The notes under the pieces are model-generated. The model was not told the DNA's origin, made no database searches, and worked only from the letters and a program-made list of their open reading frames with translations. Source: Thermofilaceae archaeon (lineage in GTDB: Archaea; Thermoproteota; Thermoprotei; Thermofilales; Thermofilaceae). From it: 64,000 nt of DNA. The stretch lies in contig JAVYWK010000007.1 in the NCBI GenBank assembly GCA_038727095.1, positions 10,058 to 74,057 on the forward strand. The letters run 5' to 3'. Shown in pieces: positions 5,752 through 50,959 of this stretch. Position numbers and translations under genes: made by a program. The number at the start of each line of letters is the position of its first letter. Positions within the stretch are counted from its first letter, which is position 1.

Positions 5752-7956
5752 CTACAGTGTGACATAGTCTTCAACCGTGGGTAAGCGTGGCGGGAGCCCT
5801 TTTCGCTTCCGGATCTCCATGATTAAGTCCGTGAGAACCGACTGGGGGACTGGATACCAGTGCGAGAACTCTGTGGCCCAGAAAGCTCTTCCCTGCGTGG
5901 CTTCGCGCATCTCATCAGCTAGATTGAAGGACTCGCTGACTGGTATCTCCCCGAGCACTCTCATCAGCACGCCGCGCTGCTCCAAGTTTAAGATCTTTCC
6001 TCTATGCTTATTCAAAACGTTTAACGCTCCGCTTAGCCACTCCTGCGGGACTCGCACCTCGATTTTTAGAATGGGTTCGAGGAGCGTTGGTGCAGCATCC
6101 ATGAAGCTGGCGAAGATAGCGTTCTTGGTGGCTGGCATTATCTGGGCAGGCCCCCTATGTGCTGGATCTTCGTGGAGCTGAGCATCGACGAGAACCACCT
6201 TGGCCCCCCTTACGGGCTCCTGGGCTAGTGGCCCAGCTTGCATAGCCCAGCGGAAGCCCTGAACTATCGTGTCGGCCACCTCTCGCAGGTACTGGACGCC
6301 GGTCGTCCTATTGACGAATATGTTGAAGTTCTCGTCGATGTCCCAGATCCCTCTAGCCTCGTCAGTATCCCAGCCGGCGTACTCCCTCAGTAGTTTAGCC
6401 CGCTCCCTCCACTCCTGGTCTGCATACACTTTGCCCTCCTGCATGAGTTTCAAGGTTTCCTCGTTCAGAGGCTCAATGTAGATGTAGAGCCTGTTGTGCT
6501 TGTTTGGCGATTTGCCCTCAAACACGTTGCCGCGCTTCCTTACTGTCTCCCTGTACCTAACGATTGGCTGCGACGTGATGATGTCTAGACTAGTCCTTTG
6601 CTTCAGGTCCCAGAGAACGATTTCCAAGTGCAGGGTGCCCATGCCGCTAATTAGGTATTCACCGGTCTCCTCGTTTATGTAGACCTTTAGGGTGGGATCC
6701 TCGATGGCGAGCTTTCTCAGTGAATCGACGAGTTTGGGTAGATCGCTGCTCCTCTTTGGTTCCACAGCGATAGTTACTACCGGCTCGCTGATGTAGCTCA
6801 TCCGCTCAAACGGGACCATCGAATCCTTGTACTTGATGTCGACTACAGTTTCACCCGCCCTTGCCTTCTCCAACCCTAGTAAAGCTACGATGTTTCCAGA
6901 GCTCACTTCATCGATTTTCTCCCTGTAGGGTCCCATGTACAGGCTGACCTGGAGAACCTTACCGCCGTCCCTCGCATTGAGAAGCCATACTTCGTCACCC
7001 GGCCTTACTGTTCCACTGAAGACCCTGCCGGTCGCTACGAAACCAGCGTGGGGATCGGCCACTACCTTACTGATGGCTATCACTAGCGGGCCCTCTGGGT
7101 TGCACTCCAGCATCGCTCTGCCGATCTCCCCATCCAGGTCGCCTCTCCACAGCTTGGGAACCCTGTACATCTGCGCCTCCCTCGGATTGGGTACGTGCTC
7201 GACAATCATGTCGAGTAGGGCAACGTGAAGCGGGAAGTCGTTCGCCAGCTGATCGTGGTACCCCTTTTCGTAGGCGTCGATTATGTAATCGAATTTTACA
7301 CCTTTCTCAACCGCTATGGGTACCGTCAAGCCCCATTTATGGAGGGCACTTCCAAAAGCTACCTGACCCTTCTTAAAATCCACTTTCCATTTGTCCTTGA
7401 ACTCGGGGTCGGCGTACATCTCGACAAGCACGTTGAAGTCGCGCACTATCTCCACGAACCGCTGCTGTATTTCCTGGGGGCTCAGACGGAGCTCCTTAAT
7501 CAGCCTGTCCACCTTGTTTATGAAGAGTAAGGGTCTCACGTACTCGTTCAACCCCTGCCTCACAACGGTCTCTGTCTGCGTCATCACGCCCTCCACAGCG
7601 TCAACCACTACGAGCCCACCGTCCATCAGCCTAAGGCTTCTGGTAACGTGGCCCGTGAAGTCCACGTGGCCGGGCGTATCCACAAGGTTGATCACGTAGG
7701 GCTTACCCCTCCACTCGTGGTAAAGCGAAATGTTAGCCGCCTTTACCGTCATCTGCCTCAGCTGCTCGATTTCCACGTAATCGAGAGCCAGAGCTTTACC
7801 AGCAACCTTAGGGCTGAGAAGGCCCGCTGCCATTAGTAGAGAGTCGGAAGTCGTCGTCTTCCCGTGATCTACGTGCGCTAGAGTCCCTATGTTACGCACT
7901 TGCTCTACGTTCCTCATTATCCTGGCTATCTCTTCGACCTGTTTGAAGCGCACCAT
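5752..7956 (-). CDS. fusA: elongation factor EF-2
   Basis: AHVDHGKTT, DTPGHVDF, NKVD; diphthamide loop LHEDPAHRGPAQ. Confidence 0.98.
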   Translation of the reverse strand: MVRFKQVEEIARIMRNVEQVRNIGTLAHVDHGKTTTSDSLLMAAGLLSPKVAGKALALDYVEIEQLRQMTVKAANISLYHEWRGKPYVINLVDTPGHVDFTGHVTRSLRLMDGGLVVVDAVEGVMTQTETVVRQGLNEYVRPLLFINKVDRLIKELRLSPQEIQQRFVEIVRDFNVLVEMYADPEFKDKWKVDFKKGQVAFGSALHKWGLTVPIAVEKGVKFDYIIDAYEKGYHDQLANDFPLHVALLDMIVEHVPNPREAQMYRVPKLWRGDLDGEIGRAMLECNPEGPLVIAISKVVADPHAGFVATGRVFSGTVRPGDEVWLLNARDGGKVLQVSLYMGPYREKIDEVSSGNIVALLGLEKARAGETVVDIKYKDSMVPFERMSYISEPVVTIAVEPKRSSDLPKLVDSLRKLAIEDPTLKVYINEETGEYLISGMGTLHLEIVLWDLKQRTSLDIITSQPIVRYRETVRKRGNVFEGKSPNKHNRLYIYIEPLNEETLKLMQEGKVYADQEWRERAKLLREYAGWDTDEARGIWDIDENFNIFVNRTTGVQYLREVADTIVQGFRWAMQAGPLAQEPVRGAKVVLVDAQLHEDPAHRGPAQIMPATKNAIFASFMDAAPTLLEPILKIEVRVPQEWLSGALNVLNKHRGKILNLEQRGVLMRVLGEIPVSESFNLADEMREATQGRAFWATEFSHWYPVPQSVLTDLIMEIRKRKGLPPRLPTVEDYVTL

Positions 7957-38877: not shown

Positions 38878-39756
38878 TCAGGCAAAGTGGCGTTCAAGCG
38901 TCCCTTCTCGCGCTGGTACTAGATCTAGCAGCCTTCTCATCAACTTGAGTTTGAGCTTCTCCCCCAGGTTTACCTTGATAAGCTTGAGGCTTACAGGCGA
39001 TTTAGCCACCATAATTTCGCAATTGCTAAAGTTGCTAGTCAGCGCCCCATCTATCACCACACTACAACCACCCTCGATCACCACCGTCAGTTTACGGGTG
39101 GCGGAAGCCACGAAGGGCTTCAACAGAGCTGAAAACGGCGCTAGAGGAGTTACTATGAATGCCTCAAGCAGAGGGTCCAGAATGGCTCCACCCGCTGACA
39201 GTGCGTAAGCAGTGGAGCCCGTAGGTGTTGCGACGATAAGGCCGTCAAGCCGACCTTCCATTACTAACTCATCGTCCAGGAGTACCCTCGCTCTAAGGAG
39301 GACGCCGCAGCGTGATGTGAGTATCGCCGCCTCATTGGCGAAGATGGAGCGCCAACCACTAATAACCGCCTCACCAACAAGCCGGTTTTCGATCGTGTAC
39401 TTGCCCTGCGCGACGAGCTGGAGCGCTGGAATAGCATTGTCTAACGTCACCTCCATGAGGAAGCCTAGACTATCGCCGCTGTTCACGCCCAGCAGGGGGA
39501 TTACCCCCCGTGTTTCATGAAACACTTTAAGCAGTGTCCCGTCACCACCCACCACTAAGGCAAAATCTGCCCACTTAACTGCCTGCTCAGGGCTTAATCT
39601 CGGAGAGTTACTGGGGAAGGGGCAGGCTGAGTGGATGGCAACCTGGAAACCGTGTTTCTCCAAGAAGTTCTCCAGCATTACGAGTTTCTCCTCGCTTACT
39701 GTCGGTTTTACGTAAACCCATACGCGCGTAAAGCCTCGCACGTGAACCCTATACAC
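38878..39756 (-). CDS. nadK: NAD kinase
   Basis: GGDGTLL, LGFL, ANE, DGLIVATPTGSTAYALSAGG. Confidence 0.95.
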   Translation of the reverse strand: MYRVHVRGFTRVWVYVKPTVSEEKLVMLENFLEKHGFQVAIHSACPFPSNSPRLSPEQAVKWADFALVVGGDGTLLKVFHETRGVIPLLGVNSGDSLGFLMEVTLDNAIPALQLVAQGKYTIENRLVGEAVISGWRSIFANEAAILTSRCGVLLRARVLLDDELVMEGRLDGLIVATPTGSTAYALSAGGAILDPLLEAFIVTPLAPFSALLKPFVASATRKLTVVIEGGCSVVIDGALTSNFSNCEIMVAKSPVSLKLIKVNLGEKLKLKLMRRLLDLVPAREGTLERHFA

Positions 39757-39842
39757 CCGGATATAGATTTTATAAGGTATTCACGGTTTCACGATTAGGC
39801 AAGGTTTTAATAGTGGGTAGAGCCGCATCCGTGTGAGGGACG

Positions 39843-40247
39843 ATGTCGACGAAGCCTGTGGATGCTGGGTCATTAAAGGAGGGCTCTTTTGTGATAGTAG
39901 ATAGCGAACCCTGCAGGGTTACGGAAGTCGAAAGATCAAAGACGGGGAAGCATGGGTCAGCTAAGGTCCGCATAGTCGCTATAGGGATATTTGACGGTGT
40001 GAAAAGAACCTTAGTCGTCCCTGCAGATTCCAAAGTCGAAACTCCGATCGTAAGGAAATTCCCAGGGCAGGTTCTCGCGTCTCTCGGCGGTGACATAGTT
40101 CAGGTGATGAGCCTGGAGGACTACTCCACTTTCGAGGCTCCGTTACCCGATGATCCTGACGTTAGATCAAAAATAGAGCCGGGAGTAGAAGTGGAAGTTT
40201 GGAGCATAATGGGACGCTACAAGATAATGCGTACGCTCAAACGCTAA
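39843..40247 (+). CDS. eif5a: translation factor aIF-5A
   Basis: SKTGKHGSAK hypusine motif. Confidence 0.97.
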   Translation: MSTKPVDAGSLKEGSFVIVDSEPCRVTEVERSKTGKHGSAKVRIVAIGIFDGVKRTLVVPADSKVETPIVRKFPGQVLASLGGDIVQVMSLEDYSTFEAPLPDDPDVRSKIEPGVEVEVWSIMGRYKIMRTLKR

Positions 40248-40509: not shown

Positions 40510-41022
40510 ATGAATGAGCAGGGGGGAAGTTCCACGACGCCCCAATACGAAATGTTCAAGGGGCTGCATAGGGCACCCTACAGCCTACTGGAAGCCCTGA
40601 GGAGGGTTCAGGCGGTTTACGGTTACCTACCTCTCGAGGGGATAAAGATGGCAGCCGATTATGTGGGCGTGCCTCTCGCTCAGGCGTACAGTGTCGCGAC
40701 CTTTTACCACCAGTACAGCCTCGAACCAATCGGGAAGTACAGAATACTGGTGTGCATGGGAACTGCCTGCCACTTAAGAGGGAATGGGCTCAATCTCGAG
40801 TTTCTAAGGACCATGCTGAACTTAAAGCCGGGTCAAAAGACTACGCAGGATAGGGCTTTTTCAGTGGAAGAGGCGAGATGCTTTGGCTGCTGCGGTTTAG
40901 CTCCGGTCGTCATGATACTGAAGCCTGACGGGAGCAACGAAATTGTTGGGAGAGCTACGCCCCGCAGCCTTCGAGCGGCCGTGGAGCGTTACCGCAAGCT
41001 TGCGCGGGGTGGTGAAGGTTGA
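40510..41022 (+). CDS. NuoE/HydC-like [2Fe-2S] subunit
   Basis: VATFY, CMGTAC, CFGCCGLAPV. Confidence 0.92.
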   Translation: MNEQGGSSTTPQYEMFKGLHRAPYSLLEALRRVQAVYGYLPLEGIKMAADYVGVPLAQAYSVATFYHQYSLEPIGKYRILVCMGTACHLRGNGLNLEFLRTMLNLKPGQKTTQDRAFSVEEARCFGCCGLAPVVMILKPDGSNEIVGRATPRSLRAAVERYRKLARGGEG

Positions 41023-42992
41023 CGTGGACGTTGCTCGATAGGTGCTGCGAAAAGTGCAGCCACAGTCCGGAGAAGCCGTGCCGCGACTACATCGAGTGCC
41101 GGCTTAACGGGCCGCTCTGCCACAGTGACGAGGAGTGCAGAGAGCGCAGGCGCAGGAGGCTTAAGGAGCTGAAGTACGGGGAGAAGGGTGCGAAGGTAAA
41201 GGTCCCGATGGCTAGCTGCACGCTAGCGACAGGGGCCGAAGGCATCTACAGCGTAGTGCGGAGTACTATTGAAAAACTCGGTTTGGAGGCTACAGTAACA
41301 ATAGCCGGGTGTCACGGGCTGGACTTCATCGATCCTTGGCTGGAGTTCTCAGCTGTAGGAATGCCGACGGCCATCTACGCAAACGTTAGGCCGGGCGACG
41401 TTCCTAAACTCGTTGAAAAGTACTTCGTAAGGCAGGAGGTCGACGGGGCGTTCGCGCTGTGGGAGAGGACAGGGACGGCTAAGGGGGAGGAGAAAGTACC
41501 GCTGCTCAACGAACTGGATTTCTGGAGGAAGCAGGTCAAGTGGGTCTCCCGCAACTGCGGTGTCGTAAACCCGGAGTCGCTTGAAGAGTATGTAGCTGGC
41601 GGAGGATACAGGGGGCTGAGCAGAGCTCTGAAGATAGGGCCTGACGCGGTTATAGACGAGATCCAGAAGAGTGGTCTACGCGGTAGAGGTGGCGCAGGCT
41701 TCCCGACGGGGCTCAAGTGGAGGCTTACAAGGCAGCAGCCGGCGAAGCCCAAGTACGTTATCGCAAACGCTGACGAAGGAGATCCGGGCGCTTTCATGAA
41801 CAGGCTCCTAGCGGAGTCCGACCCCTTCAGGATCGTTGAGGGGCTGACCATCGCAGGCTACGCTATCGGCGCTGAAAGGGGTTTCATCTTCGTGAGAGCA
41901 GAGAAGCCCCTAATGGCGAAGAGGCTTCAAAGGGCTGTTGAGGAAGCGAGGAAGTGCGGTTTGCTGGGTGAAAACATACTCGGTTCAGGCTTCAGCTTCG
42001 ACATAGAAGTCATTCTGAGCGCGGGAGCTTTCGTCTGTGGCGAGGAAACTGCGATGATAGCTGCCATAGAGGGGAAGAGGGCTTGGCCGCGGCAGAGACC
42101 GCCCTACCCCGCCGAGAAGGGGCTCTGGGGGCAACCGACGGCCGTGAATAACGTAGAAACGTTGGCCCACGTTGCGACGATAATGGCGGAAGGGGTGGAA
42201 AAGTTCACCGCGTTGGGTACTGAAAAGAGCAAAGGCACGAAGATGTTCTGCGTAACTGGTTCGGTCAAGAGGGTTGGAGCATACGAAGTTCCGATAGGGG
42301 CTAGCCTCAGGTACCTTGTGGAAGATCTCGCGGGAGGGCCTCCGGATGGAGTGAGAATCAAGGCTGTTCAGATAGGAGGCCCCTCAGGAGGCTGTGTACC
42401 GGCTCAGCTGCTCGATCTGCCGGTTGACTACGAGACGCTGCAATCGGCTGGTGCCATTATGGGAAGCGGTGGTATGGTGGTGATCGGGGATGACAGCTGC
42501 ATGGTAGACGTTGCAAAGTTCTTCCTCACCTTTACTTCCGCTGAATCCTGCGGCAAGTGTATGCCATGCAGAGTGGGGTTGAGGGTCATGTGGAGCATTC
42601 TCGATAAGATCACCCGGGGCGAGGGGGCCGAAGATGACATCACTACACTGCGGCAAGTAGCAGAGACAGTGAAATCGATGAGCCTGTGCGCGCTGGGTGG
42701 TACAGCTCCCAACCCCGTCCTTACAACGCTCCGATACTTCATGGACGAGTACACGGCGCACATTAAGGATAGAGTGTGCCCCGCTAAAGCCTGTTTAGCC
42801 CTAACCAAGTTCATCATCGATGAGGTGAAATGTATAGCCTGCGGGCAGTGCGCCGCGAACTGTCCGGCTAACGCGATTTCGAAGACTGACGGCGGCAAGT
42901 ACCGGATAGACCAGGAGAAGTGTATAAGATGTGGCGTTTGTTTCACAGTCTGCCCCGTTAAAGCAATATCTAAAGCCTCTGGATCGAGGTGA
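41019..42992 (+). CDS. NuoF/HydB-like FMN/NAD(P)-binding subunit with C-terminal 2[4Fe-4S]
   Basis: GRGGAGFPTG, NADEGDPGAFM, CGEETA, ESCGKCMPCR, two CxxCxxCxxxCP. Confidence 0.93.
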   Translation: MTWTLLDRCCEKCSHSPEKPCRDYIECRLNGPLCHSDEECRERRRRRLKELKYGEKGAKVKVPMASCTLATGAEGIYSVVRSTIEKLGLEATVTIAGCHGLDFIDPWLEFSAVGMPTAIYANVRPGDVPKLVEKYFVRQEVDGAFALWERTGTAKGEEKVPLLNELDFWRKQVKWVSRNCGVVNPESLEEYVAGGGYRGLSRALKIGPDAVIDEIQKSGLRGRGGAGFPTGLKWRLTRQQPAKPKYVIANADEGDPGAFMNRLLAESDPFRIVEGLTIAGYAIGAERGFIFVRAEKPLMAKRLQRAVEEARKCGLLGENILGSGFSFDIEVILSAGAFVCGEETAMIAAIEGKRAWPRQRPPYPAEKGLWGQPTAVNNVETLAHVATIMAEGVEKFTALGTEKSKGTKMFCVTGSVKRVGAYEVPIGASLRYLVEDLAGGPPDGVRIKAVQIGGPSGGCVPAQLLDLPVDYETLQSAGAIMGSGGMVVIGDDSCMVDVAKFFLTFTSAESCGKCMPCRVGLRVMWSILDKITRGEGAEDDITTLRQVAETVKSMSLCALGGTAPNPVLTTLRYFMDEYTAHIKDRVCPAKACLALTKFIIDEVKCIACGQCAANCPANAISKTDGGKYRIDQEKCIRCGVCFTVCPVKAISKASGSR

Positions 42993-42998
42993 TGAGCC

Positions 42999-43655
42999 TT
43001 GGTGAAGGTAAAGATTGATGGTAGAATCGTGGAGGTCGAACCGGGCACAACAATACTAGAGGCCGCCGAGAAGGCGGGGATCAGCATACCCAAGCTCTGC
43101 GTAGTACCCGGCTTGTACGAATCATCGAGCTGCCGTCTCTGCGTTGTTAAAACCCCCGCGGGCCGTCTCTTCCCTGCCTGCAACTACCGGGTTTACAGGG
43201 ACGAGGAGTTCATCGCCTCATCACACGATCTCTGGGAAATGAGAAGAGTGAACTTCGAGCTGGTCTTGAAGTTCCACAGGATCGAGTGCTGGCAGTGCGA
43301 GAGGAAGAGCGCTTGCTCACTGGTGGAATTATCCAAGGAGCTCATGGTGGAGGGCATACCCGTGTGCTCTGAGTGCCCGCTGCCGAGAGATGAGTGCTTA
43401 CTTCGTAAAGGCGTGTTGTGCTTAGGGATGATTACCCAATCGGGTTGCAACGCAGAATGTATAGTCGGCGGCGGCGAATGTTGGGGTTGCAGGGGGCCAA
43501 TAGCGAGAGCCGACGTCCTGGAGCGAGCTTTCGAGAGGTACGCTGAGCTGGGCTTCAATTCACGGTTGGTTCTAAGTAAAGCGGAGATCTTCTGGAACTC
43601 GCTGGAAGAGTTCGCGATCGTTAAAAGAGTTGCTAACGAAGGTGGGGTGAAATGA
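42999..43655 (+). CDS. FeS subunit: NuoG/HydA N-terminal [2Fe-2S] and His-ligated cluster fused to C-terminal module of [NiFe] small subunit
   Basis: IPKLC..CRLCVV..PAC; HRIECWQC..C; VCSEC..CLL..CLGMIT..GC..C..CWGCRG. Confidence 0.8.
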   Translation: MVKVKIDGRIVEVEPGTTILEAAEKAGISIPKLCVVPGLYESSSCRLCVVKTPAGRLFPACNYRVYRDEEFIASSHDLWEMRRVNFELVLKFHRIECWQCERKSACSLVELSKELMVEGIPVCSECPLPRDECLLRKGVLCLGMITQSGCNAECIVGGGECWGCRGPIARADVLERAFERYAELGFNSRLVLSKAEIFWNSLEEFAIVKRVANEGGVK

Positions 43656-44938
43656 GCGGTAAGTTGGCTCTATTCATCGAGGAGGTTCCGGCCGTCGCGG
43701 GAAAGGTCAATGTTAAGATCGAGGGGGAGCAAACAAAAGTGAGAGTCGAGTTCGGCGTGGCCCAGGAGCCAAGGTTCTTCGAAAGGTTCCTTAAAGGCAG
43801 ACCAGTAACTCTAGCACCCTGGGTCATGTCGAGGATTTGCGGTGTCTGCAGCCAAGTCCACCTCACGTGCTCGATAGAAGCCGCTGAGAAAGCGCTAGGC
43901 CTGAAACCAAAACCGGAGGTATTCTCGCTTAGAGAGGTGGCGAAGGGCCTCGAAATAGTCCAGAATAACGTCGTTCACGTGCTCATGTCCATACCCGACT
44001 TTACGGGCCACGGTAACGTTGTGGAGTTCTCTAAGGCCCATCCAAGCCTTTTCGGCACGCTCATGGCTGTGAACTCGTCGCTACTCGAGGTTAGTAAGAG
44101 GGTGGCTGGAAGGTTTGTCCACCTGCCTAGCCTGGGGGTGGCTACGCACGGCAAACCGGTAAGCGTGCACGAATTGATTTCAGCCAGCAAAATGCTGAAG
44201 GGCGTCGCAAGCAGCTTGATGGAAACGGCGGAGGAGCTGAGCAAGGTGTGGGGGCCACTTTGCGAGGGCTTTAAGGACCCAGCGCCCACGTACTGCGTGC
44301 TTAACGCGTCGCAGCGGAGGTATCCCTTCTTCTCCGGCGAGTTGCTCTTCTCCGATGGAAGGGTCGTGAGGGCTGGGGAGTACGCGTACGCGCTGGAGGA
44401 GCTCACAAGCCCCTACTCGAATGCCCACTACGTCCTCTACAAGGGGGAACCCTTCTACGTAGGATCAAGAGCCAGGCTTATGGCCTACCGGAGCTTTCTA
44501 CCCAAAGAGATAATCGACCTTGAGAAGACACTTGCCGTGGATTTCTCCAACCCCTTTGATAACGTTAAAGCGCAGTATATCGAAGCGGCGTACGTGGCGG
44601 GCCTATTGGCGGAAACCTTAGACGAGCTAGCGTCGAAGGGTGAGGGAGTGCACCCCCACGTCCTAACGGAGTGCCCCGAGGTTGACGGTGAAGGCGTGGG
44701 ACTGGCCACAGCGCCGCGAGGCGTCCTGATACACCACTACAGGGTTGCTAAGGGGAGGTTGGAGTACGCCAACATCATCACTCCAACCGTTATGAACGCG
44801 AGGCACATAGAGGTCACGGGCGAAGCCCTCGTAAAGTGGGCCGTCGAGAACGGCATAGAGGACGAGGGGCGCATCAAGCGTTTGGTAGCAGCACTCGTGA
44901 GAGCTTATGATCCATGCCTCCCCTGCTCCGTGCACTAG
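43652..44938 (+). CDS. [NiFe]-hydrogenase large subunit (group 3-like)
   Basis: L1 SRICGVCSQVH, APRGVLIHHY, L2 YDPCLPCSVH. Confidence 0.92.
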   Translation: MSGKLALFIEEVPAVAGKVNVKIEGEQTKVRVEFGVAQEPRFFERFLKGRPVTLAPWVMSRICGVCSQVHLTCSIEAAEKALGLKPKPEVFSLREVAKGLEIVQNNVVHVLMSIPDFTGHGNVVEFSKAHPSLFGTLMAVNSSLLEVSKRVAGRFVHLPSLGVATHGKPVSVHELISASKMLKGVASSLMETAEELSKVWGPLCEGFKDPAPTYCVLNASQRRYPFFSGELLFSDGRVVRAGEYAYALEELTSPYSNAHYVLYKGEPFYVGSRARLMAYRSFLPKEIIDLEKTLAVDFSNPFDNVKAQYIEAAYVAGLLAETLDELASKGEGVHPHVLTECPEVDGEGVGLATAPRGVLIHHYRVAKGRLEYANIITPTVMNARHIEVTGEALVKWAVENGIEDEGRIKRLVAALVRAYDPCLPCSVH

Positions 44939-46228
44939 GTGGTTGGAATGAAGGTGGCCTTCTTCTCCTTCGGTGCTTGCGAAGGCTGCAGGTACAGAAT
45001 AGTCGGTGAACTGCACAAGCTGACGGCGCTCCCCAACATCGAAATAGTCAGGGAACCACTGCTGGGGCTCACCGAAGACACCGAGTACGACATCGCCGTT
45101 GTGGAAGGGGCGGTCACAACGCCGGATGTTGAGAAGCTCAAGCGGATCAGGAGTAAGGCGAAGTACTTGATCGCACTGGGCAGCTGCGCGAGACTGGGTG
45201 GGATTACGACGCTGGGGTACAGGTTAGGCCTAAAACTGGAGGAGTACGAGGCTAAAGGGTACGCTGACGCTCTTCCGCTCCACCGATTCGTCAAAATCGA
45301 CAGCCACGTGAGGGGCTGTCCAGCCAGTGTGGACGAGTTGGTCACTGTTCTCAACGCGTTTTCCCTGGGGTTCAACCCCTCGAAGTATGAAAGACGCTTC
45401 GAGTACGAGCGCTTAACCCAGGATCTCGTAATCAGCGATGACTTCCTGAAGCTGGATCCTGGGAAGTGCATAGTGTGTGGAAGGTGCGTTGAGTTCTGCG
45501 GTCTTGTGGAAGCTCACGCGCTAACCCAAGCGTTTAGAGGGTTCCGAGTTATAGTGAGTACACCGGCACAACTGCCCTTCCTCGAGGCGGGCTGCATCAG
45601 ATGCGGGCTTTGCGCTGCATACTGTCCCGTCGCAGCCGTGACGTACAGGAGCGACGTAGAGGAGGCGATCAAGCTGATGCGCGAGGGGGGCACTGCTGTC
45701 GTAGAGACGTACGCACTGGAAAGCGCAGCCACCGCGCTCGGTGTTAAGCCCGGCCAAGTACTCTCACTGCTAACAGAGCTCGGCTTCAGCAGCGCAACAG
45801 TCGTTAACCCCCTCGAGGGAACGCTGAAGTACGACGGCATTGTACCCTTCAGCTCGGCCGAGGAAAGATGGTTAAAGAAGCGTTTCCCGAACGCGCCCGT
45901 AAAGGGGCGCGTCAAGCTTGAAGGTGAGAGAGGCACGGTTATCATAACGGCTTGCGCTGCAAGGAAGGAGGATCACAAGCCGGCTATAACGGCGCACGAG
46001 CTTGTTGAGCTTGCAAAAAACTCTAGGATCACTGTGACCGACCTACCCGAGCAGCCGGTGAACACGAGCAACATCGAGGGTATTAAAGTCGCCGTAGGGC
46101 CAACAGCTTGCGCTAAAGCCGTCGAGGAGTACCTTAAAGGTTCCGTAAGCCGAGTAGTCCTGCAGATCTGCCCAGGAGGATGCTCGCGAGGATCAGGAAG
46201 CCCCTACAAGGTACTGGTTACTAGATAA
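44939..46228 (+). CDS. [NiFe] small-subunit domain + 2[4Fe-4S] + degenerate [FeFe]-hydrogenase H-domain fusion
   Basis: CEGC, VEGAV, LGSCA, RGCP; CIVCGRC and CIRCGLC ferredoxin; ITACAARKED, AITAHEL, QICPGGCSRGSG. Confidence 0.8.
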   Translation: MVGMKVAFFSFGACEGCRYRIVGELHKLTALPNIEIVREPLLGLTEDTEYDIAVVEGAVTTPDVEKLKRIRSKAKYLIALGSCARLGGITTLGYRLGLKLEEYEAKGYADALPLHRFVKIDSHVRGCPASVDELVTVLNAFSLGFNPSKYERRFEYERLTQDLVISDDFLKLDPGKCIVCGRCVEFCGLVEAHALTQAFRGFRVIVSTPAQLPFLEAGCIRCGLCAAYCPVAAVTYRSDVEEAIKLMREGGTAVVETYALESAATALGVKPGQVLSLLTELGFSSATVVNPLEGTLKYDGIVPFSSAEERWLKKRFPNAPVKGRVKLEGERGTVIITACAARKEDHKPAITAHELVELAKNSRITVTDLPEQPVNTSNIEGIKVAVGPTACAKAVEEYLKGSVSRVVLQICPGGCSRGSGSPYKVLVTR

Positions 46229-46370
46229 TCAAAGCGAAAGAATAGTTCTACTCTATTTTAATTCACTTCCTTCTTCGACACACTACCCTAGTGCCTAGCA
46301 GTTACGCTTGGTGTAAAAAAAAACAGGAGAAAAACAATAAATGGCATGTCCTAGACGGCGGCACCTCAGC

Positions 46371-47759
46371 ATGTCCTCAACGCTCAGAGATCTGAGGAGC
46401 TCGTCGCGTGGCTACAAGGTGAGTGTCGTTGAAGGTGCGCTCACAGTGTTCGGCTCAGCGCTGATAAGCCCCATGACAACACCCCTACTGCTGCGCTTGG
46501 GGGCTGACGCGACCACGCTCGCCCTCTACACAGCCGCTGTTCAGGTCTCCACACCCCCTCTTCAGCTAACCGCTGCGGTTCTCCTCGACAGGTTCAGAGA
46601 GAAGCGGCTGATGATCATGACCCTGTTCGCGGCGGTCAGCAGGGCTACCTGGCTTGGCGTACTACTGGCGATTATCGGAGTAGCTGGAGGCGCGCGGGAA
46701 GTCATGCTGCTGCTATGGTTGTCTAACGCTCTAGGCATCTTCGCGGGCCTAGCGTGGACCGACCTGATGGCTGACCTTGTCGAGCCAGAGCGTCGGGGCA
46801 GACTGTTTGCGCTGCGAAACACTATTCACGGCGTCATCAACATCATTGGGCTTGTTCTTGCGAAGTTCATATACGATACGTACGGTTACCCTCAAGGGTA
46901 CGCAGCGGCATTTGGAGTGGGTACGCTCTTCCTACTAGCCGCAGTCCCACTACTGTACATGTACGGTGACCCCGTCAAACCGAGGGGCTCCAACCTCCGT
47001 TTGACGAAGGTTTTCTCGACGCTGAAGAATAGCGAAGTGATAAAGGACTCTGGCGCGCTAGCAACGTGGTCCTTCTCCGTCAACATCGTCGCTGCGATAT
47101 GGAACTACCACTTGTACACAGCGTTCAAGGCTGACGAAAGCTGGTTCACAGCGATCAACCTCGCGGGCGGCATTATCGGCACTCTGGCGAATCCCCCGTG
47201 GGGCAGCTTCTACGACAGGTTCGGGCCCCGAGCAACGTTCCTGATCTCGGGGCTGGGTATAGTCTTTGTTCCAGCGTTCTTCCCTCACCTACCAAGCCTT
47301 CCTGGCCAAATCGCGCTGCAGGTTTACTCCTCGTTCCTCTGGACGGGCTTCAACCTAGCTTCGTTCAACTACGCCATCGCCTACGGGGCTGAGTACAGGC
47401 ACGTCTACATAGCCGTCTACAACACGATACCATCGATACTCGCGGCGGTGGGCACTAGCTTAGGGGCTTGGCTGTACGGCTACGCGGGTCCAGTTGCGTT
47501 CTACGCGTCCTCAATCCTCCGTTTGCTCAGCCTGATCGTCCTATACAGAGTAGCAGCTGCCAGAGGAGCAACGTACGAGGAGCTGAGGCTCGCCAGCCAC
47601 CTTTACCCTCTTTACGTGGCGGGCAGGCAGGCCTTCCACGCCACATACATTGAGTTCATCTACGCCGTACGGCTACTGTACGCCACGCTGACAGTCGCAA
47701 CGCTGCTTGTCTTACTCCTAGCGCTCTACGCAACGGTGCTAAAGCTTCTCGGCTTATGA
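46371..47759 (+). CDS. MFS transporter
   Basis: About 12 TM segments, WTDLMADLVEPERRGR, YDRFGPR motif A. Confidence 0.88.
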   Translation: MSSTLRDLRSSSRGYKVSVVEGALTVFGSALISPMTTPLLLRLGADATTLALYTAAVQVSTPPLQLTAAVLLDRFREKRLMIMTLFAAVSRATWLGVLLAIIGVAGGAREVMLLLWLSNALGIFAGLAWTDLMADLVEPERRGRLFALRNTIHGVINIIGLVLAKFIYDTYGYPQGYAAAFGVGTLFLLAAVPLLYMYGDPVKPRGSNLRLTKVFSTLKNSEVIKDSGALATWSFSVNIVAAIWNYHLYTAFKADESWFTAINLAGGIIGTLANPPWGSFYDRFGPRATFLISGLGIVFVPAFFPHLPSLPGQIALQVYSSFLWTGFNLASFNYAIAYGAEYRHVYIAVYNTIPSILAAVGTSLGAWLYGYAGPVAFYASSILRLLSLIVLYRVAAARGATYEELRLASHLYPLYVAGRQAFHATYIEFIYAVRLLYATLTVATLLVLLLALYATVLKLLGL

Positions 47760-48583: not shown

Positions 48584-50959
48584 TTGACTGAGATGCTGAG
48601 AGAGTTCTGGCTGCTAGACGCTAGCTACGACGTAGTGGGAGGTATTCCCGAGGTTAGGCTCTGGGGTATCGACAGGAGTGGCGAGCGGGTTGTCGTGCTG
48701 GATAGGAGCTTTCGACCTTACATCTACGTTCTCCCGGAGGAAGGTTCAGAGGAGCGTGTCGCAAAGAGGATTGCGGGGATCGGTGGTAAGTTCGGTGTGA
48801 TAGGCGTCGAAATCGTTGATAAGAAGTACTTCGGGAAACCGGTTAAAGCCGTTAAGGTAACTTTAATGTCGCCTCGCGTTGTGCCTCAGCTCCGCGAAGC
48901 TGTAGCCAAGCTCGAGGGTGTGCGCGAGGTTCTAGAGGCCGACATCCGGTTCTACATGCGCTACATGATCGATAAGGGCGTGCGCCCCTGCGGCTGGCAC
49001 TCGGTTGAAGTCGAGGAAGTCCCCAACGAGCACGGCTGGAGAGTTGGGAAAGTCTACCTGGCTAAGTCTGCGCCGCAGCACCTGGGCCCCGAAGACCCTC
49101 CCGACTTGAGGATCTACGCCATCGATATCGAGTGCTACAACCCCTTTGGGGAGCCGAACGCGGATCGCGACCCGATCATCGTGGTATCGGTGAAGCGGGG
49201 CGGCGAAGTCAAAGTGTTCACGGCTGAGGGGAAGGATGATAAGCCGGCGATAGCGGCGTTCATCGAGGATCTGCAGACATTTGACCCCGACGTGATCGTT
49301 GGTTACAACAGCAACCGTTTCGACTGGCCCTACCTGCTGGAGCGCGCTAAGCGCCACGGATTGAAGCTCGATGTATCGAGGGGAGGAGGGGAGCCTACTC
49401 CCAGCGTGTACGGCCACTACTCGATAGTGGGGAGGGCCAACGTAGACCTGTACGACTTCGCTGAAGAGGTCTACGAGGTTAAAGTCAAGACGTTGGATAA
49501 CATAGCGGATTATCTTGGCGTAAAGAAGAGAAGCGAGAGAGTACTGATCGAGGGGCACAGAATCCACGAGTACTGGGACGACCCGAGCAAGAGGCCGCTG
49601 CTAATCAGGTACTCCATTGATGACGTTGAGAGCACGTACGGTCTCGCTGAGAAGTTCCTTCCCTTCGCCATCCAGCTGTCAAACATCGTCGGTCTTCCGC
49701 TAGACCAGGTTGGCGCAGCTTCCGTCGGGAACCGGGTCGATTGGTACTTGATGAGGGCTGCATTCGAGTACGGCGAGTTGATACCGAACAGGGTTGAACG
49801 ACCGTACGAGCCGTACCGCGGAGCGATCGTGCTCAAGCCCTCTCCGGGTGTCCACAAGAACGTAGCTGTGCTGGATTTTACTTCGATGTACCCCAGCCTG
49901 ATGATCAAGTACAACGTATCTCCAGACACCTACGTTCCGCCCGATGAGGTGGTCGATGATTCCCTGATCCATGTCGCACCAGAGGTGGGGCACCGCTTCA
50001 GGAGGGATCCTCCGGGCTTCTACAAGAAAGTGCTGGAGAGCTTGCTCGAGGCTAGGCGAGGGATCCGTGCGAAGATGAAGGGCTTGAATCCGGATTCACC
50101 TGAGTACAGGCTGCTCGATGAGAGGCAGAGAGCGTTGAAGGTTGTAGCGAACGCGAGCTACGGCTACTGCGGTTGGGTGGGGGCTAGGTGGTACAAGCGT
50201 GAGGTAGCTGAAGCCACGACGGCGTGGGGGCGGAAGACGATTACTGAGACCATAGCTCTCGCGAGAAAGCTGGGCTTGAGGGTGATCTACGGCGATACAG
50301 ATAGCGTATTCGTGGTGTACGAGCCTGAAAAAGTGGAGACGCTGGTGAAGGCGATTAACGAGCAGCTGAACCTGGACATCAAAGTCGATAAAGTCTACGT
50401 TAAGATCTTCTTCACGGAGGCGAAGAAGAGGTACTGCGGTCTCCTCGAGGACGGCCGCGTCGATGTGGTGGGGCTTGAGGCCGTGAGGGGTGACTGGGCG
50501 GAGATAGCCAAGGAAGTTCAGGAGAGGGTTATCGAACTTATACTGAAGGAGGGTGATGTGGGAGAAGCTGTTAACTATGTGAGGAGAGTGATCGAGGACC
50601 TAAGGAACGGGCGCATACCCTTCGAGAAGCTGATCATCTGGAAGTCCCTGGGGAAAGGCCTAGACGAGTACGAGGTTGAAGCTGCCCACGTCGCGGCTGC
50701 CAGGAGGCTTATAGAGAGCGGGTACAGGGTAGCGAAGGGCGGAAAGATAGGCTTCGTAATCGTCAGCGGCTCGGGTAGGCTCGCCGACAAGGCTGTTCCG
50801 TACATCATGCTGAAAAGTATGAGTGAGGTGGATCTCGATTACTACGTGAGGAAACAGGTGATCCCCGCCGCGATGAGGGTTCTCGAGTACTTCGGCGTGA
50901 AGGAGAACCAACTGCTCGAAACCGGTCAACGAACGCTGCTCGATTTCTTCGGCGGCTAA
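48584..50959 (+). CDS. polB: family B DNA polymerase (PolB3-like), intein-free
   Basis: DIEC, YNSNRFD, DFTSMYPS, KVVANASYGY, YGDTDS, KKRY. Confidence 0.96.
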   Translation: MTEMLREFWLLDASYDVVGGIPEVRLWGIDRSGERVVVLDRSFRPYIYVLPEEGSEERVAKRIAGIGGKFGVIGVEIVDKKYFGKPVKAVKVTLMSPRVVPQLREAVAKLEGVREVLEADIRFYMRYMIDKGVRPCGWHSVEVEEVPNEHGWRVGKVYLAKSAPQHLGPEDPPDLRIYAIDIECYNPFGEPNADRDPIIVVSVKRGGEVKVFTAEGKDDKPAIAAFIEDLQTFDPDVIVGYNSNRFDWPYLLERAKRHGLKLDVSRGGGEPTPSVYGHYSIVGRANVDLYDFAEEVYEVKVKTLDNIADYLGVKKRSERVLIEGHRIHEYWDDPSKRPLLIRYSIDDVESTYGLAEKFLPFAIQLSNIVGLPLDQVGAASVGNRVDWYLMRAAFEYGELIPNRVERPYEPYRGAIVLKPSPGVHKNVAVLDFTSMYPSLMIKYNVSPDTYVPPDEVVDDSLIHVAPEVGHRFRRDPPGFYKKVLESLLEARRGIRAKMKGLNPDSPEYRLLDERQRALKVVANASYGYCGWVGARWYKREVAEATTAWGRKTITETIALARKLGLRVIYGDTDSVFVVYEPEKVETLVKAINEQLNLDIKVDKVYVKIFFTEAKKRYCGLLEDGRVDVVGLEAVRGDWAEIAKEVQERVIELILKEGDVGEAVNYVRRVIEDLRNGRIPFEKLIIWKSLGKGLDEYEVEAAHVAAARRLIESGYRVAKGGKIGFVIVSGSGRLADKAVPYIMLKSMSEVDLDYYVRKQVIPAAMRVLEYFGVKENQLLETGQRTLLDFFGG

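What the first reader, a model, noticed from the sequence alone, without database searches (positions are those of the whole stretch)
45650..46228. Miniaturised, degenerate H-cluster domain
Seen: about 190 aa retaining ordered HydA landmarks. GQVLSLLTELGF corresponds to GKMVAALRRLGF; VPFSSAEERW sits at P1 (TSCCPxW, both Cys lost); ITACAARKED at P2 (MPCxxKxxE); AITAHEL matches VLTTREL; LQICPGGCSRGSGSP is P3 (ExMACxxGCxxGGGQP). Only three canonical cluster Cys remain, plus one Cys in GPTAC. Inference: binds a [4Fe-4S] or [3Fe-4S] cluster without the di-iron subsite, paralleling Nar1-like loss of catalysis.
Basis: partly seen in the sequence, partly recalled or inferred. Interest (0 to 1): 0.75.

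Follow-up and report, generated by a model that had tools for sequence, protein, structure and literature searches.

The report
Shrunken H-cluster domain in hybrid hydrogenase
The flagged stretch is a real but half-sized relative of the catalytic domain of iron-only hydrogenases, fused to a nickel-iron hydrogenase subunit in a hot-spring archaeon; it belongs to a published family of hybrid hydrogenases and has probably kept only an iron-sulfur cluster, not a second hydrogen-making site.

Summary

The protein is a fusion of a NiFe small-subunit N-half, a 2x[4Fe-4S] F-domain and the mini H-domain. It is the last gene of hydC-hydB-hydD-hyhL-hyhS::hydA. That is the published "group F [FeFe] / group 3f [NiFe] hybrid hydrogenase" (Greening 2024), whose Table S2 lists a family member (my L016).

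New here: this clade (37 of 37 sequences) has Ser at the CpI Cys300 ligand position and no conserved relay Cys. It also lacks three H-domain segments that a long form resembling the published Thermoplasmata rows keeps. On an outgroup-rooted tree it is nested as CC, then CS, then xS.

Most likely the domain holds a 3Cys+Ser [4Fe-4S] cluster at the end of the F-cluster branch, and H2 chemistry runs at the intact NiFe site. An active mini [FeFe] site is not excluded, because Ser ligation is tolerated in A. woodii HydA and tested group F relatives also have odd second spheres. A known family; moderate interest.

The parts
40510..41022 (+). hydC: NuoE/HoxE-like thioredoxin-like [2Fe-2S] subunit (170 aa)
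   Evidence: PF01257 E 4.9e-38. NCBIfam HoxE/NuoE-family matches, all below the curated cut-offs.
41019..42992 (+). hydB: NuoF-like FMN/NAD(H) subunit with a CCxxC prefix and a C-terminal 2x[4Fe-4S] (657 aa), Bfu-type
   Evidence: Complex1_51K 4.5e-45, NADH_4Fe-4S 2.9e-31 and Fer4 families. NuoF_pre_CCxxC above its cut-off. Best PDB hits are NfnB 9n5u_B (1.6e-207) and A. mobile NiFe-HydB 7t2r_B (8.6e-203, residues 66-652 to 15-596).
42999..43655 (+). hydD: HydA/NuoG N-terminal piece ([2Fe-2S] + His-[4Fe-4S], aa 1-120) fused to the C-terminal half of a group 3 NiFe small subunit (aa 120-198)
   Evidence: Fer2_4 and NADH-G_4Fe-4S_3. FeFe_hydrog_A6 2-121 to 1-121, and sulfhyd_ShyD 116-198 to 154-237 of 240. 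PDB: 8a6t_A 3-122; 9nez_A 161-241.
43652..44938 (+). hyhL: group 3 [NiFe]-hydrogenase large subunit (428 aa) with both Ni-binding motifs intact
   Evidence: PF00374 2.8e-25. Sulfhydrogenase alpha models 1.2e-49 and 6.4e-46. RICGVCS near the N-terminus and DPCLPCSVH at the very C-terminus, read.
44948..45382 (+). HyhS part of the fusion: N-terminal half of the NiFe small subunit (proximal-cluster Cys), aa 4-148
   Evidence: Oxidored_q6 2.4e-19. Sulfhydrogenase delta 4-148 to 4-157. A. mobile HydS 7t2r_E 3-92.
45410..45643 (+). F-domain: 2x[4Fe-4S] ferredoxin-like domain, contiguous with the H-domain as in HydA
   Evidence: Fer4 families. FeFe_hydrog_A6 158-259 to 128-230. 8a6t_A 153-276 to 123-249 in one stretch that runs across the F/H junction.
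45644..46225 (+). Mini H-domain (aa 236-429, 194 aa): the finding
   Evidence: Invariant in 37 of 37: E256 G282 S305 E308 C339 T351 C411 G414 C415 G418 G420.
45839..45871 (+). P1 remnant IVPFSSAEERW: F304 at the relay-Cys position, invariant S305 at the ligand-Cys position, invariant E308
   Evidence: hhalign; HMMER alignment to 7q4v_A; column counts.
45944..45973 (+). P2 remnant ITACAARKED: C339 = second cubane ligand; T337 replaces Met, R342 replaces Lys
46160..46204 (+). P3 LQICPGGCSRGSGSP: C411 and C415 = third ligand and the Cys that bridges to the di-iron site in true enzymes

Best explanation
The domain is a derived, stripped-down H-domain. It most likely still binds one [4Fe-4S] cubane through Cys339, Cys411, Cys415 and the invariant Ser305, but no longer builds a di-iron subsite.

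It sits at the end of the F-cluster branch of a five-subunit Bfu-type complex (HydC, HydB, HydD, HyhL, HyhS-HydA). In that complex H2 is made or split at the intact [NiFe] site of HyhL. Electrons would run through the proximal cluster and the HydA-type clusters to the FMN of HydB, where they are bifurcated to NAD+ and ferredoxin, or confurcated in reverse.

The mini H-domain is then the counterpart of the A5 cluster domain of A. mobile NiFe-HydA: a retained cluster-bearing end piece with a structural or redox-buffer role.

Shown: homology, fold, the residue pattern, operon context and phylogenetic nesting. Inferred: cluster type, the Ser ligand, absence of the 2Fe site, and the electron path.
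For: Homology and fold.

Three cubane Cys are invariant in 37 of 37, and the fourth ligand position is Ser in 37 of 37. The neighbouring relay position holds 10 different residues. 11 of 37 members have only three Cys in the whole domain.

Ser at this position ligates the cubane in A. woodii HydA (PMC10021017).

Against a 2Fe site:
- hhalign shows three H-domain segments missing: consensus ADLTIMEE.., S.KSPQQM.., and SGAG.IFGATGGVMEAALR plus the following hairpin.
- The long group F-like representative P0088 keeps counterparts of all three.
- The Met/Lys/Met positions of the MPCxxK and ExMxC motifs are T(36)/S(1), R(24)/W(10)/K(3), and never Met.
- The own genome (92.4% complete) has no HydE or HydG, only sub-threshold GTPase hits to HydF, and does have HypD.
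- The mini-H domain is the least conserved part of the fusion: mean pairwise identity 0.36 against 0.43 and 0.53.

Tree with a bacterial outgroup: (CC form,(CS form,(38 S forms))), SH-aLRT 99/91/99.

Context: the NiFe motifs are intact, HydB is Bfu-type, and the five genes lie in the same order in 28 of 40 loci.

Precedent: in A. mobile NiFe-HydABCSL the H-cluster is replaced by a cluster on a branch that the authors call a non-functional evolutionary remnant for electron transfer (PMC8880783, passages).
Against: No metal, spectroscopic or activity data exist for any S-type member.

The bridging Cys (C415), the GGCxxGGGQP loop (most members) and two acidic residues at the site (E256, E308) are invariant. 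That is more constraint than a mere relic needs.

Table S2 rows from Thermoplasmata SG8-5, the lineage from which the paper's Th1 and Th2 came, also lack the relay Cys (P1 reads SWCP; P2 reads PCIVHK in the two rows where that part was visible). I did not establish which rows are Th1 and Th2. Th1 made H2 after [2Fe]adt loading (PMC11216029 section 10). A deviant second sphere is therefore not disqualifying.

Ser ligation leaves A. woodii HydA active.

Most archaea with [FeFe] hydrogenases lack HydEFG (PMC11216029 section 12), so the absence of maturases is weak evidence.

I could not inspect model coordinates. Ser305-cluster geometry and the absence of a cavity are therefore untested. The tree is a quick search with single CC and CS representatives, and its root is assumed.
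Confidence: 0.62

Rival explanations
1. It is what the literature calls it: a true group F [FeFe] hydrogenase. The 194-aa domain still carries a di-iron (or related) subsite on Cys415 and turns over H2, which would make it the smallest catalytic H-domain known.
For: A member of the same clade (L016 = QMRZ01000231.1_2) is listed as group F HydA in Table S2.

The paper reports Th1, from Thermoplasmata SG8-5, as active after [2Fe]adt loading.

Invariant in the family: C415, the P3 loop, E256 and E308.

The Ser ligand is compatible with an active H-cluster.

Ultraminimal group E enzymes (mean 286 aa) are reported active (PMC11216029 section 8).
Against: The tested enzymes come from a lineage whose Table S2 rows are long forms (571-591 aa) that keep the ligand Cys. 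A stored look-alike, P0088, keeps the three segments missing here.

The paper's inclusion filter was only an HMM bit score >= 15.9 plus CxxxC (section 26). S-type rows scored 23-35 bits, against 75-89 for the long forms.

No HydE/F/G in the genome.

P1 decays stepwise on the tree.
Confidence: 0.13
2. The cubane is kept because it is used. With the lid segments gone it is exposed and serves as an electron entry or exit port (docking of ferredoxin or another carrier), or as a site for a non-H2 reaction on a cubane with one non-Cys ligand.
For: Invariant Ser and two invariant Glu lie around the site. The domain is conserved across Thermoproteota, Bathyarchaeia, Nitrososphaerota and Archaeoglobales MAGs.

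Greening et al. themselves raise the idea that one module might act on another substrate (section 11).

It is present in 10 of 23 species genomes of the window's family, so it is retained long-term.
Against: HydB already carries the C-terminal 2x[4Fe-4S] domain that is the ferredoxin site in the solved Bfu and HydABC enzymes (PMC8880783 abstract; PMC10021017 figure 2 legend).

There is no partner gene conserved next to the operon beyond an MFS transporter in 5 close loci.

Nothing here tests exposure or docking.
Confidence: 0.17
3. The domain binds no metal at all and is only a structural spacer left from a HydA ancestor.
For: It is the least conserved of the three domains. One canonical ligand is lost. 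The single sequence falls below the Pfam threshold.
Against: Three Cys, Ser305 and the Gly of the P3 loop are invariant in 37 of 37 across very distant archaea. That pattern is hard to explain without a cluster.
Confidence: 0.08

Closest known systems
Group F [FeFe] hydrogenase / group 3f [NiFe] hybrid hydrogenase complexes of archaea (Greening et al. 2024, Cell, PMC11216029)
   Same: Same fusion (N-terminal HyhS, C-terminal HydA domain) and the same gene cluster hydC, hydB, hydD (nuoG-like), hyhL, fusion (section 10).

A Thermofilaceae member of the window's clade is in their Table S2 as group F. Of the 17 group F rows I saw (the paper gives 21), 10 have the same Cys-less P1 wording PxSxAE or a near form.
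   Different: The text I read describes group F as a true H-cluster domain with conserved Cys ligands. Activity was tested only on two Thermoplasmata SG8-5 proteins.

The window's clade has Ser at the ligand position. Its H-domain is about 190-220 aa. It lacks three segments that the long-form look-alike P0088 retains.

The figures (the logos of Fig. S4B) were not visible to me, so the authors may show this variation there.
A. mobile electron-bifurcating NiFe-HydABCSL (NiFe-Bfu; Feng et al. 2022, PMC8880783; PDB 7t2r)
   Same: A HydABC-type bifurcating core plus a NiFe module. The HydA H-cluster is replaced by an Fe-S cluster (A5) on a dead-end branch.

HydB is a very close match by sequence score (E 8.6e-203). 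HydS and HydA N-terminal parts are also hit.
   Different: There HydA is one 692-aa chain and HydS a separate 179-aa chain with one cluster. Here HydA and the small subunit are each split and fused crosswise.

The A2 profile of the mini H-domain did not reach 7t2r_A at E <= 10, so the two remnants are not close in sequence.
A. woodii HydA1 of HydABC (Katsyv et al. 2023, PMC10021017; PDB 7q4v)
   Same: Ser replaces the same Cys ligand of the H-cluster cubane (Ser301Aw). HMMER prints ITSCSPGW for 7q4v_A aligned to the family's P1.
   Different: A. woodii keeps the neighbouring Cys, the full-length H-domain and a normal H-cluster, and it is active.
Ultraminimal group E [FeFe] hydrogenases of DPANN archaea (PMC11216029)
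   Same: An H-domain shortened by condensed loops (section 8).
   Different: Group E proteins average 286 aa, keep all ligand Cys by the authors' account, stand alone, and bind the H-cluster. This domain is 194 aa, fused, and has Ser for one ligand.
Nar1/NARFL (eukaryotic CIA factor; recalled, no call)
   Same: An H-domain relative without hydrogenase activity that binds Fe-S clusters (from memory).
   Different: From memory, Nar1 keeps four Cys at the H-site and has an N-terminal cluster. It is eukaryotic, not fused to a NiFe subunit and not part of a Bfu operon. No Nar1 structure appeared in the rows shown.

Membership tests
[FeFe]-hydrogenase catalytic H-domain (Pfam PF02906 Fe_hyd_lg_C) | Sequence passes Pfam's gathering score | tested here: not met
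   11.8 bits against the 22.1 cut-off, E 0.18. The whole-genome PF02906 search found no match. Transitional relatives P0028 and P0029 pass, with 47.3 and 57.5 bits.
[FeFe]-hydrogenase catalytic H-domain (Pfam PF02906 Fe_hyd_lg_C) | Homology by profile methods and the H-domain fold | tested here: met
[FeFe]-hydrogenase catalytic H-domain (Pfam PF02906 Fe_hyd_lg_C) | Four Cys ligands of the H-cluster cubane (CpI C300, C355, C499, C503; numbering recalled) | tested here: not met
   Three of four are present. The C300 position is Ser in 37 of 37. Caveat: the same Ser occurs in the active A. woodii HydA.
[FeFe]-hydrogenase catalytic H-domain (Pfam PF02906 Fe_hyd_lg_C) | Relay Cys of P1 and the Met/Lys/Met of MPCxxK and ExMxC | tested here: not met
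   Relay position: 10 different residues, with Cys in 1 of 37. Met353 position: T 36, S 1. Lys358 position: R 24, W 10, K 3. Met497 position: never Met. The long-form group F rows of Table S2 also deviate here.
[FeFe]-hydrogenase catalytic H-domain (Pfam PF02906 Fe_hyd_lg_C) | HydE, HydF and HydG maturases in the genome | tested here: not met
   HydG none. HydE none. HydF: only 4 sub-threshold GTPase-region hits. The genome is 92.4% complete. This is weak evidence, because most archaeal carriers lack them.
[FeFe]-hydrogenase catalytic H-domain (Pfam PF02906 Fe_hyd_lg_C) | Binds the 2Fe subcluster and turns over H2 | not testable with these tools
   Needs protein chemistry.
Group F [FeFe] / hybrid hydrogenase (Greening 2024) | N-terminal group 3 NiFe small-subunit domain fused to a C-terminal HydA domain | tested here: met
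   Oxidored_q6 at 14-140, Fer4 families, then the mini H-domain.
Group F [FeFe] / hybrid hydrogenase (Greening 2024) | Contiguous hydC, hydB, hydD (nuoG-like) and hyhL | tested here: met
   Window 40510-46228. Same order in 28 of 40 related loci; 4 Bathyarchaeia loci lack hyhL between hydD and the fusion; 8 loci are cut by contig ends.
Group F [FeFe] / hybrid hydrogenase (Greening 2024) | The paper's filter: HMM bit score >= 15.9 and a CxxxC motif | tested here: inconclusive
   CxxxC is present (C411-C415). Their HMM is not at hand. L016 of the same clade is their row QMRZ01000231.1_2, bit score 24.
Group F [FeFe] / hybrid hydrogenase (Greening 2024) | True H-cluster domain with all ligand Cys conserved (as worded in section 10) | tested here: not met
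   Ser305 at the ligand position.
NiFe-Bfu (NiFe-HydABCSL type) | BfuB/BfuC core with FMN/NAD site and a C-terminal ferredoxin domain, plus a NiFe large subunit | tested here: met
   NiFe motifs read.
NiFe-Bfu (NiFe-HydABCSL type) | Single-chain HydA with A1-A5 clusters and a separate one-cluster HydS | tested here: not met
   HydA is split between hydD and the fusion. The small subunit is split between the fusion and hydD.
Nar1/NARFL | Four Cys kept at the H-site, an N-terminal Cys4 cluster, a eukaryotic CIA role (recalled) | not tested
   The definition is from memory. The window has three Cys at the site, and the organism is an archaeon.

The most novel reading that the evidence does not exclude
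The 194-residue domain still assembles a catalytic subsite on Cys415 next to a Ser-ligated cubane, either a di-iron centre made by an unknown archaeal route or a different cofactor. That would make it by far the smallest H2-active (or otherwise catalytic) H-domain. The complex would then be a genuine two-site hydrogenase in about ten archaeal lineages that lack HydEFG.
Probability: 0.1. Interest if true: 0.85.

Novelty: new member of a known kind. Interest (0 to 1): 0.4.

Why it matters
Greening et al. call it 'peculiar' that one complex holds two seemingly redundant hydrogenase modules (section 11). If the reading here is right, the redundancy is not real for a large part of group F: 10 of the 17 Table S2 rows I saw, and all 38 S-type rows in my tree. 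The [FeFe] module there has been cut down to a cluster holder. The complex is then functionally a NiFe-Bfu enzyme, reached independently of the bacterial A. mobile case.

This matters in three ways.
- It affects how archaeal '[FeFe] hydrogenases' are counted in genome and metagenome surveys.
- It gives a natural series (CC, CS, xS at P1; long to short domain) for asking what is minimally needed to hold the H-cluster.
- It offers a very small natural scaffold for a Ser-ligated cubane.

Tried and rejected
- Pfam on the single sequence gave only a sub-threshold Fe_hyd_lg_C hit. The profile and the fold were needed.
- C391 as fourth ligand: rejected, present in 4 of 37.
- 'Ancestral proto-H-domain' reading: not favoured, because the S-type is nested inside the CC and CS forms when rooted on bacterial group A. 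The root is assumed, so this is not excluded.
- A. mobile HydA (7t2r_A) was hit only through the F-domain. The mini-H profile did not reach it at E <= 10, and it is not in the 50 rows shown, so no statement on fold likeness to its CTD is possible.
- Model coordinates are not exposed to scripts, so no distances to Ser305 and no cavity check.
- RNA: one metatranscriptome library (X17) has contigs of a relative (roughly 94-96% identity by my count of other letters in table 8) over all five genes, including 45401-46035. Contigs in an RNA library do not prove transcription, so this is only a hint.
- The search of earlier findings returned nothing.
- Literature searches for later work on group F or S-type forms found only the Cell paper and unrelated papers, within the library searched.
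- The TSCSP search gave one passage on Melainabacteria.
Full report
**What is at the coordinates**

The finding lies in the C-terminal 192 residues of a 429-aa ORF, 44939..46228 on the + strand. The probable start is ATG 44948, which gives the 426-aa protein P0001 found at 100% identity.

The ORF is the last of five tightly packed, co-directional genes:
- 40510-41022: NuoE/HoxE-like HydC.
- 41019-42992: NuoF-like HydB, with a CCxxC prefix and a C-terminal 2x[4Fe-4S].
- 42999-43655: a 218-aa Fe-S protein (HydD).
- 43652-44938: a group 3 [NiFe] large subunit, with RICGVCS and a terminal DPCLPCSVH.
- 44939-46228: the ORF in question.

Downstream are an MFS transporter and a large ORF at 48584-50959 that I did not scan. 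By eye it looks like a family B DNA polymerase. Related loci are from archaeal MAGs, the closest labelled Thermofilum or Thermofilaceae.

**Is the H-domain likeness real?**

On its own the 192-aa piece gives only a sub-threshold Pfam hit to Fe_hyd_lg_C (E 0.18, 11.8 bits, cut-off 22.1). phmmer of the whole ORF against PDB already shows two collinear stretches to T. kivui HydA1 (8a6t_A). Residues 153-276 match 123-249, running from the F-clusters into the H-domain. Residues 383-423 match 466-508, the P3 motif.

I collected relatives in two steps:
- 13 near-full-length proteins.
- 36 complete ORFs from one-genome-per-species contigs, taken from the 40 loci L001-L040. L008, L023 and L036 run off their contigs and L040 is a fragment; these four were dropped.

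A profile of the C-terminal domain of these 37 sequences (alignment A2) was searched against all PDB sequences. It finds 43 distinct [FeFe]-hydrogenase sequences at E from 7.5e-17 to 7.1e-6. The 7 other rows have E >= 0.035.

hhalign against nine bacterial H-domains taken from loci of the same scan (A3) gives probability 99.45% and E 4.5e-22 over 208 columns.

An AlphaFold2 model built from A2 has mean pLDDT 93.3 and pTM 0.89. Its structural matches are:
- Foldseek against PDB: 73 matches at E <= 0.001. All 50 rows shown are [FeFe]-hydrogenases (best E 6.6e-7, prob 1.00, TMq 0.57-0.73).

This is an H-domain homologue of about half the usual length (194 aa against about 374 aa in A3).

**Anatomy of the site**

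CpI numbering below is recalled. From hhalign and from HMMER's alignment to 7q4v_A:
- F304 is at the relay Cys299 position.
- S305 is at the ligand Cys300 position.
- C339 = Cys355.
- R342 is at the Lys358 position.
- T337 is at the Met353 position.
- Q409 is at the Met497 position.
- C411 = Cys499.
- C415 = Cys503, the Cys that bridges to the di-iron site.
- E256 lies at the Ala of the APS motif.

Column counts across the 37 sequences:

| Position | Residues found |
|---|---|
| C339, C411, C415, S305, E256, E308, G282, T351, G414, G418, G420 | invariant |
| Relay position | 10 different residues; Cys once, in L002 |
| Lys358 position | R 24, W 10, K 3 |
| Met353 position | T 36, S 1 |
| Met497 position | never Met |

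Three stretches of the bacterial consensus have no counterpart here:
- the ADLTIMEE..EL helix;
- the S.KSPQQM segment between P1 and P2;
- the SGAG.IFGATGGVMEAALR segment with the following hairpin, between the TTREL helix and P3.

In the window's clade the helices after P3 are also missing. From memory, these three stretches carry much of the proton path and of the lining of the di-iron pocket. That assignment is recalled, not tested.

**What the literature already says**

Feng et al. 2022 (PMC8880783; passages) solved the A. mobile NiFe-HydABCSL. Its HydA lacks the H-cluster motif and has an Fe-S cluster (A5) in its place. The A2-A4-A5 branch is called a non-functional evolutionary remnant for electron transfer.

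Schut et al. 2022 (PMC9304861; passages) place this enzyme in the Bfu family.

Greening et al. 2024 is the closest prior work (PMC11216029). What I saw of it:
- abstract and outline;
- sections 10, 8 (part 1 of 2), 12, 26 and 11;
- passages;
- supplement mmc2.xlsx, by search;
- the figures were not visible.

That paper defines group F [FeFe] hydrogenases by exactly this architecture: an N-terminal HyhS domain fused to a C-terminal HydA domain, next to hydC, hydB, hydD (nuoG-like) and hyhL. It reports this for 21 genomes and names the NiFe part group 3f. Its Table S2 lists QMRZ01000231.1_2 (Thermofilaceae B17-G15, 445 aa, bit score 24) as group F. That contig is my locus L016, which lies in the window's clade. 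The gene family and the operon are therefore known.

**What the paper does not say, as far as I could read**

Section 10 describes group F as a true H-cluster domain with conserved Cys ligands. It reports activity for two fusion proteins from Thermoplasmata SG8-5: Th1 at 5% of CrHydA1 and Th2 low. The inclusion filter was an HMM bit score >= 15.9 plus a CxxxC motif.

I saw 17 of the 21 group F rows in Table S2.
- 10 rows have no Cys in P1 (wordings such as IVPMSYAEH, IIPSSEAEA, LARSPVE). Complete proteins are 413-477 aa and one row is partial; bit scores seen are 23-35.
- 7 rows keep a Cys there: SWCP or SWC(K/M) in SG8-5 and some Bathyarchaeia, and PCCY in one Brockarchaeia row. Lengths are 488-591 aa; bit scores are 20-89, with 75-89 for SG8-5.

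A stored representative with the SG8-5 P1 wording (P0088, 563 aa) aligns to the bacterial H-domain over 289 columns. It keeps counterparts of all three segments missing in the window's clade. If Th1 and Th2 resemble the SG8-5 rows, the tested enzymes and the window's protein differ both in the ligand residue and in about 70-100 residues of H-domain.

Other searches of the library found no later paper on this point.

**Direction of change**

A profile search of 1.84 billion cluster representatives found 783 proteins at E <= 1e-3, 38 at E <= 1e-10 and 14 at E <= 1e-30.
- Ten of the 14 representatives at E <= 1e-30 have both the HyhS N-terminus and the Ser form. Three more (184-196 aa) match over nearly their whole length and also show the Ser form. 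The fourteenth is P0017, an unrelated multi-domain protein.
- P0026 (242 aa, E 2.0e-37) matches over most of its length and also shows the Ser form. P0030 (112 aa, E 4.9e-22) matches over nearly all of its length but does not reach P1.
- Two further HyhS fusions are transitional: P0028 reads PCSEA and P0029 reads PCCYSA. Both pass Pfam's Fe_hyd_lg_C threshold.

I built a quick IQ-TREE of the F+H region. It has 59 rows: the window, 36 loci, 13 representatives chosen, and 9 bacterial group A enzymes as outgroup. The topology is (P0029 CC,(P0028 CS,(38 S-type))) with SH-aLRT 99, 91 and 99. On that rooting the ligand Cys first became Ser, as in A. woodii, and the relay Cys was then lost. The root is assumed, the search was quick, and CC and CS each rest on one sequence.

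**How it most likely works**

HydB is a full-length Bfu-type subunit. Its best PDB hits are NfnB (1.6e-207) and A. mobile NiFe-HydB (8.6e-203). HyhL has both Ni-binding motifs, and the genome has HypD. I therefore read the complex as an electron-bifurcating or confurcating NiFe hydrogenase.

The mini H-domain follows the 2x[4Fe-4S] F-domain in one continuous alignment stretch to HydA1 (8a6t_A 123-249). Its cluster should therefore sit next to the last F-cluster, as the H-cluster cubane does in HydA. This is inferred, because the full-length fold failed.

The invariant Ser305 is the best candidate for the fourth ligand. Katsyv et al. 2023 (PMC10021017; passages) report that in A. woodii HydA the equivalent Cys is replaced by Ser301, with no effect on the H-cluster's FTIR signature.

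My arguments against a di-iron site are:
- the three deleted segments;
- the variable second sphere;
- no HydE or HydG, and no HydF above cut-off, in a 92.4% complete genome;
- the lower conservation of this domain, 0.36 mean pairwise identity against 0.43 and 0.53 for the other two;
- the stepwise decay of P1 on the tree.

**Evidence against my reading**

- The bridging Cys, the P3 loop and two acidic residues at the site are invariant.
- The SG8-5 rows of Table S2, the lineage of the tested enzymes, also lack the relay Cys. The two rows visible at P2 also lack the canonical Lys, yet Th1 was active.
- Ser ligation is tolerated.
- Most archaeal carriers lack HydEFG.
- No member of the S-type has been tested, and I could not examine coordinates.

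I put 0.62 on the cluster-only remnant, 0.17 on a used redox port or other chemistry, 0.13 on an active [FeFe] site and 0.08 on no metal.

**Distribution and expression**

The five genes lie in the same order in 28 of 40 related loci. Four Bathyarchaeia loci lack hyhL between hydD and the fusion, and 8 loci are cut by contig ends. The mini H-domain is found in 10 of 23 species genomes of the window's family and in 5 of 9 genera. It is found in none of the 8 genomes of genus g9, four of which are single contigs.

Hot-spring metagenome runs hold close relatives. One metatranscriptome library has contigs of a relative, roughly 94-96% identical by my count, over all five genes. That is only a hint of expression.

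**Verdict**

The object belongs to a family published in 2024. The added value is the recognition that this widespread Ser-type short form differs in defining features from the long-form group F sequences of the lineage that was tested, and probably lacks a second hydrogenase site.

Noticed in passing
window 42999-46228: HydA and the NiFe small subunit each appear split at one point and fused crosswise around hyhL.
- HydD aa 1-120 = T. kivui HydA1 3-122.
- HydD aa 120-198 = sulfhydrogenase delta 161-241 (C-terminal half of the small subunit).
- Fusion aa 4-148 = delta 4-157 (N-terminal half).
- Fusion aa 153-276 = HydA1 123-249, then on to P3.
The layout is HydA(N)-S(C) | L | S(N)-HydA(C). An FrhG-type reading of fusion aa 4-234 is also possible (TIGR03294).
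   Followed up: partly
window 43652-44938: The NiFe large subunit ends exactly at DPCLPCSVH, with no C-terminal extension. If so, it would need no endopeptidase cleavage, although Table S2 shows a hyaD gene near the L016 locus.
   Followed up: no
L002 (fusion ORF 5965-7284): One Thermofilaceae member reads VPCSIAEERW. It has a Cys at the relay position next to the invariant Ser, the only one of the 37 to do so.
   Followed up: no
L033, L035, L036, L039: In four Bathyarchaeia loci the fusion gene directly follows hydD, with no hyhL between them. The paper's arrangement sheet shows hoxD-hoxY-hoxH downstream for one such genome.
   Followed up: no
window 46341-47759; L001-L004, L006: An MFS transporter follows the operon in the window and in 5 close loci, at 58-70% identity. 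Its link to the hydrogenase is unknown.
   Followed up: no
P0017 (protein library): A 4122-aa predicted protein with 7 Fe_hyd_lg_C and 7 Fe_hyd_SSU stretches, plus flavodoxin and FAD-binding domains. It may be a tandem multi-hydrogenase fusion or an assembly or gene-call artefact. It is unrelated to the window.
   Followed up: partly
L049, L063; PDB 7q4v_A: Bacterial group A enzymes with TSCSP instead of TSCCP turned up among the loci. This matches the Ser-ligated A. woodii HydA.
   Followed up: partly
window 38878-40247: NAD kinase lies on the - strand (38878-39756) and aIF5A on the + strand (39843-40247), just upstream of the hydrogenase operon.
   Followed up: no
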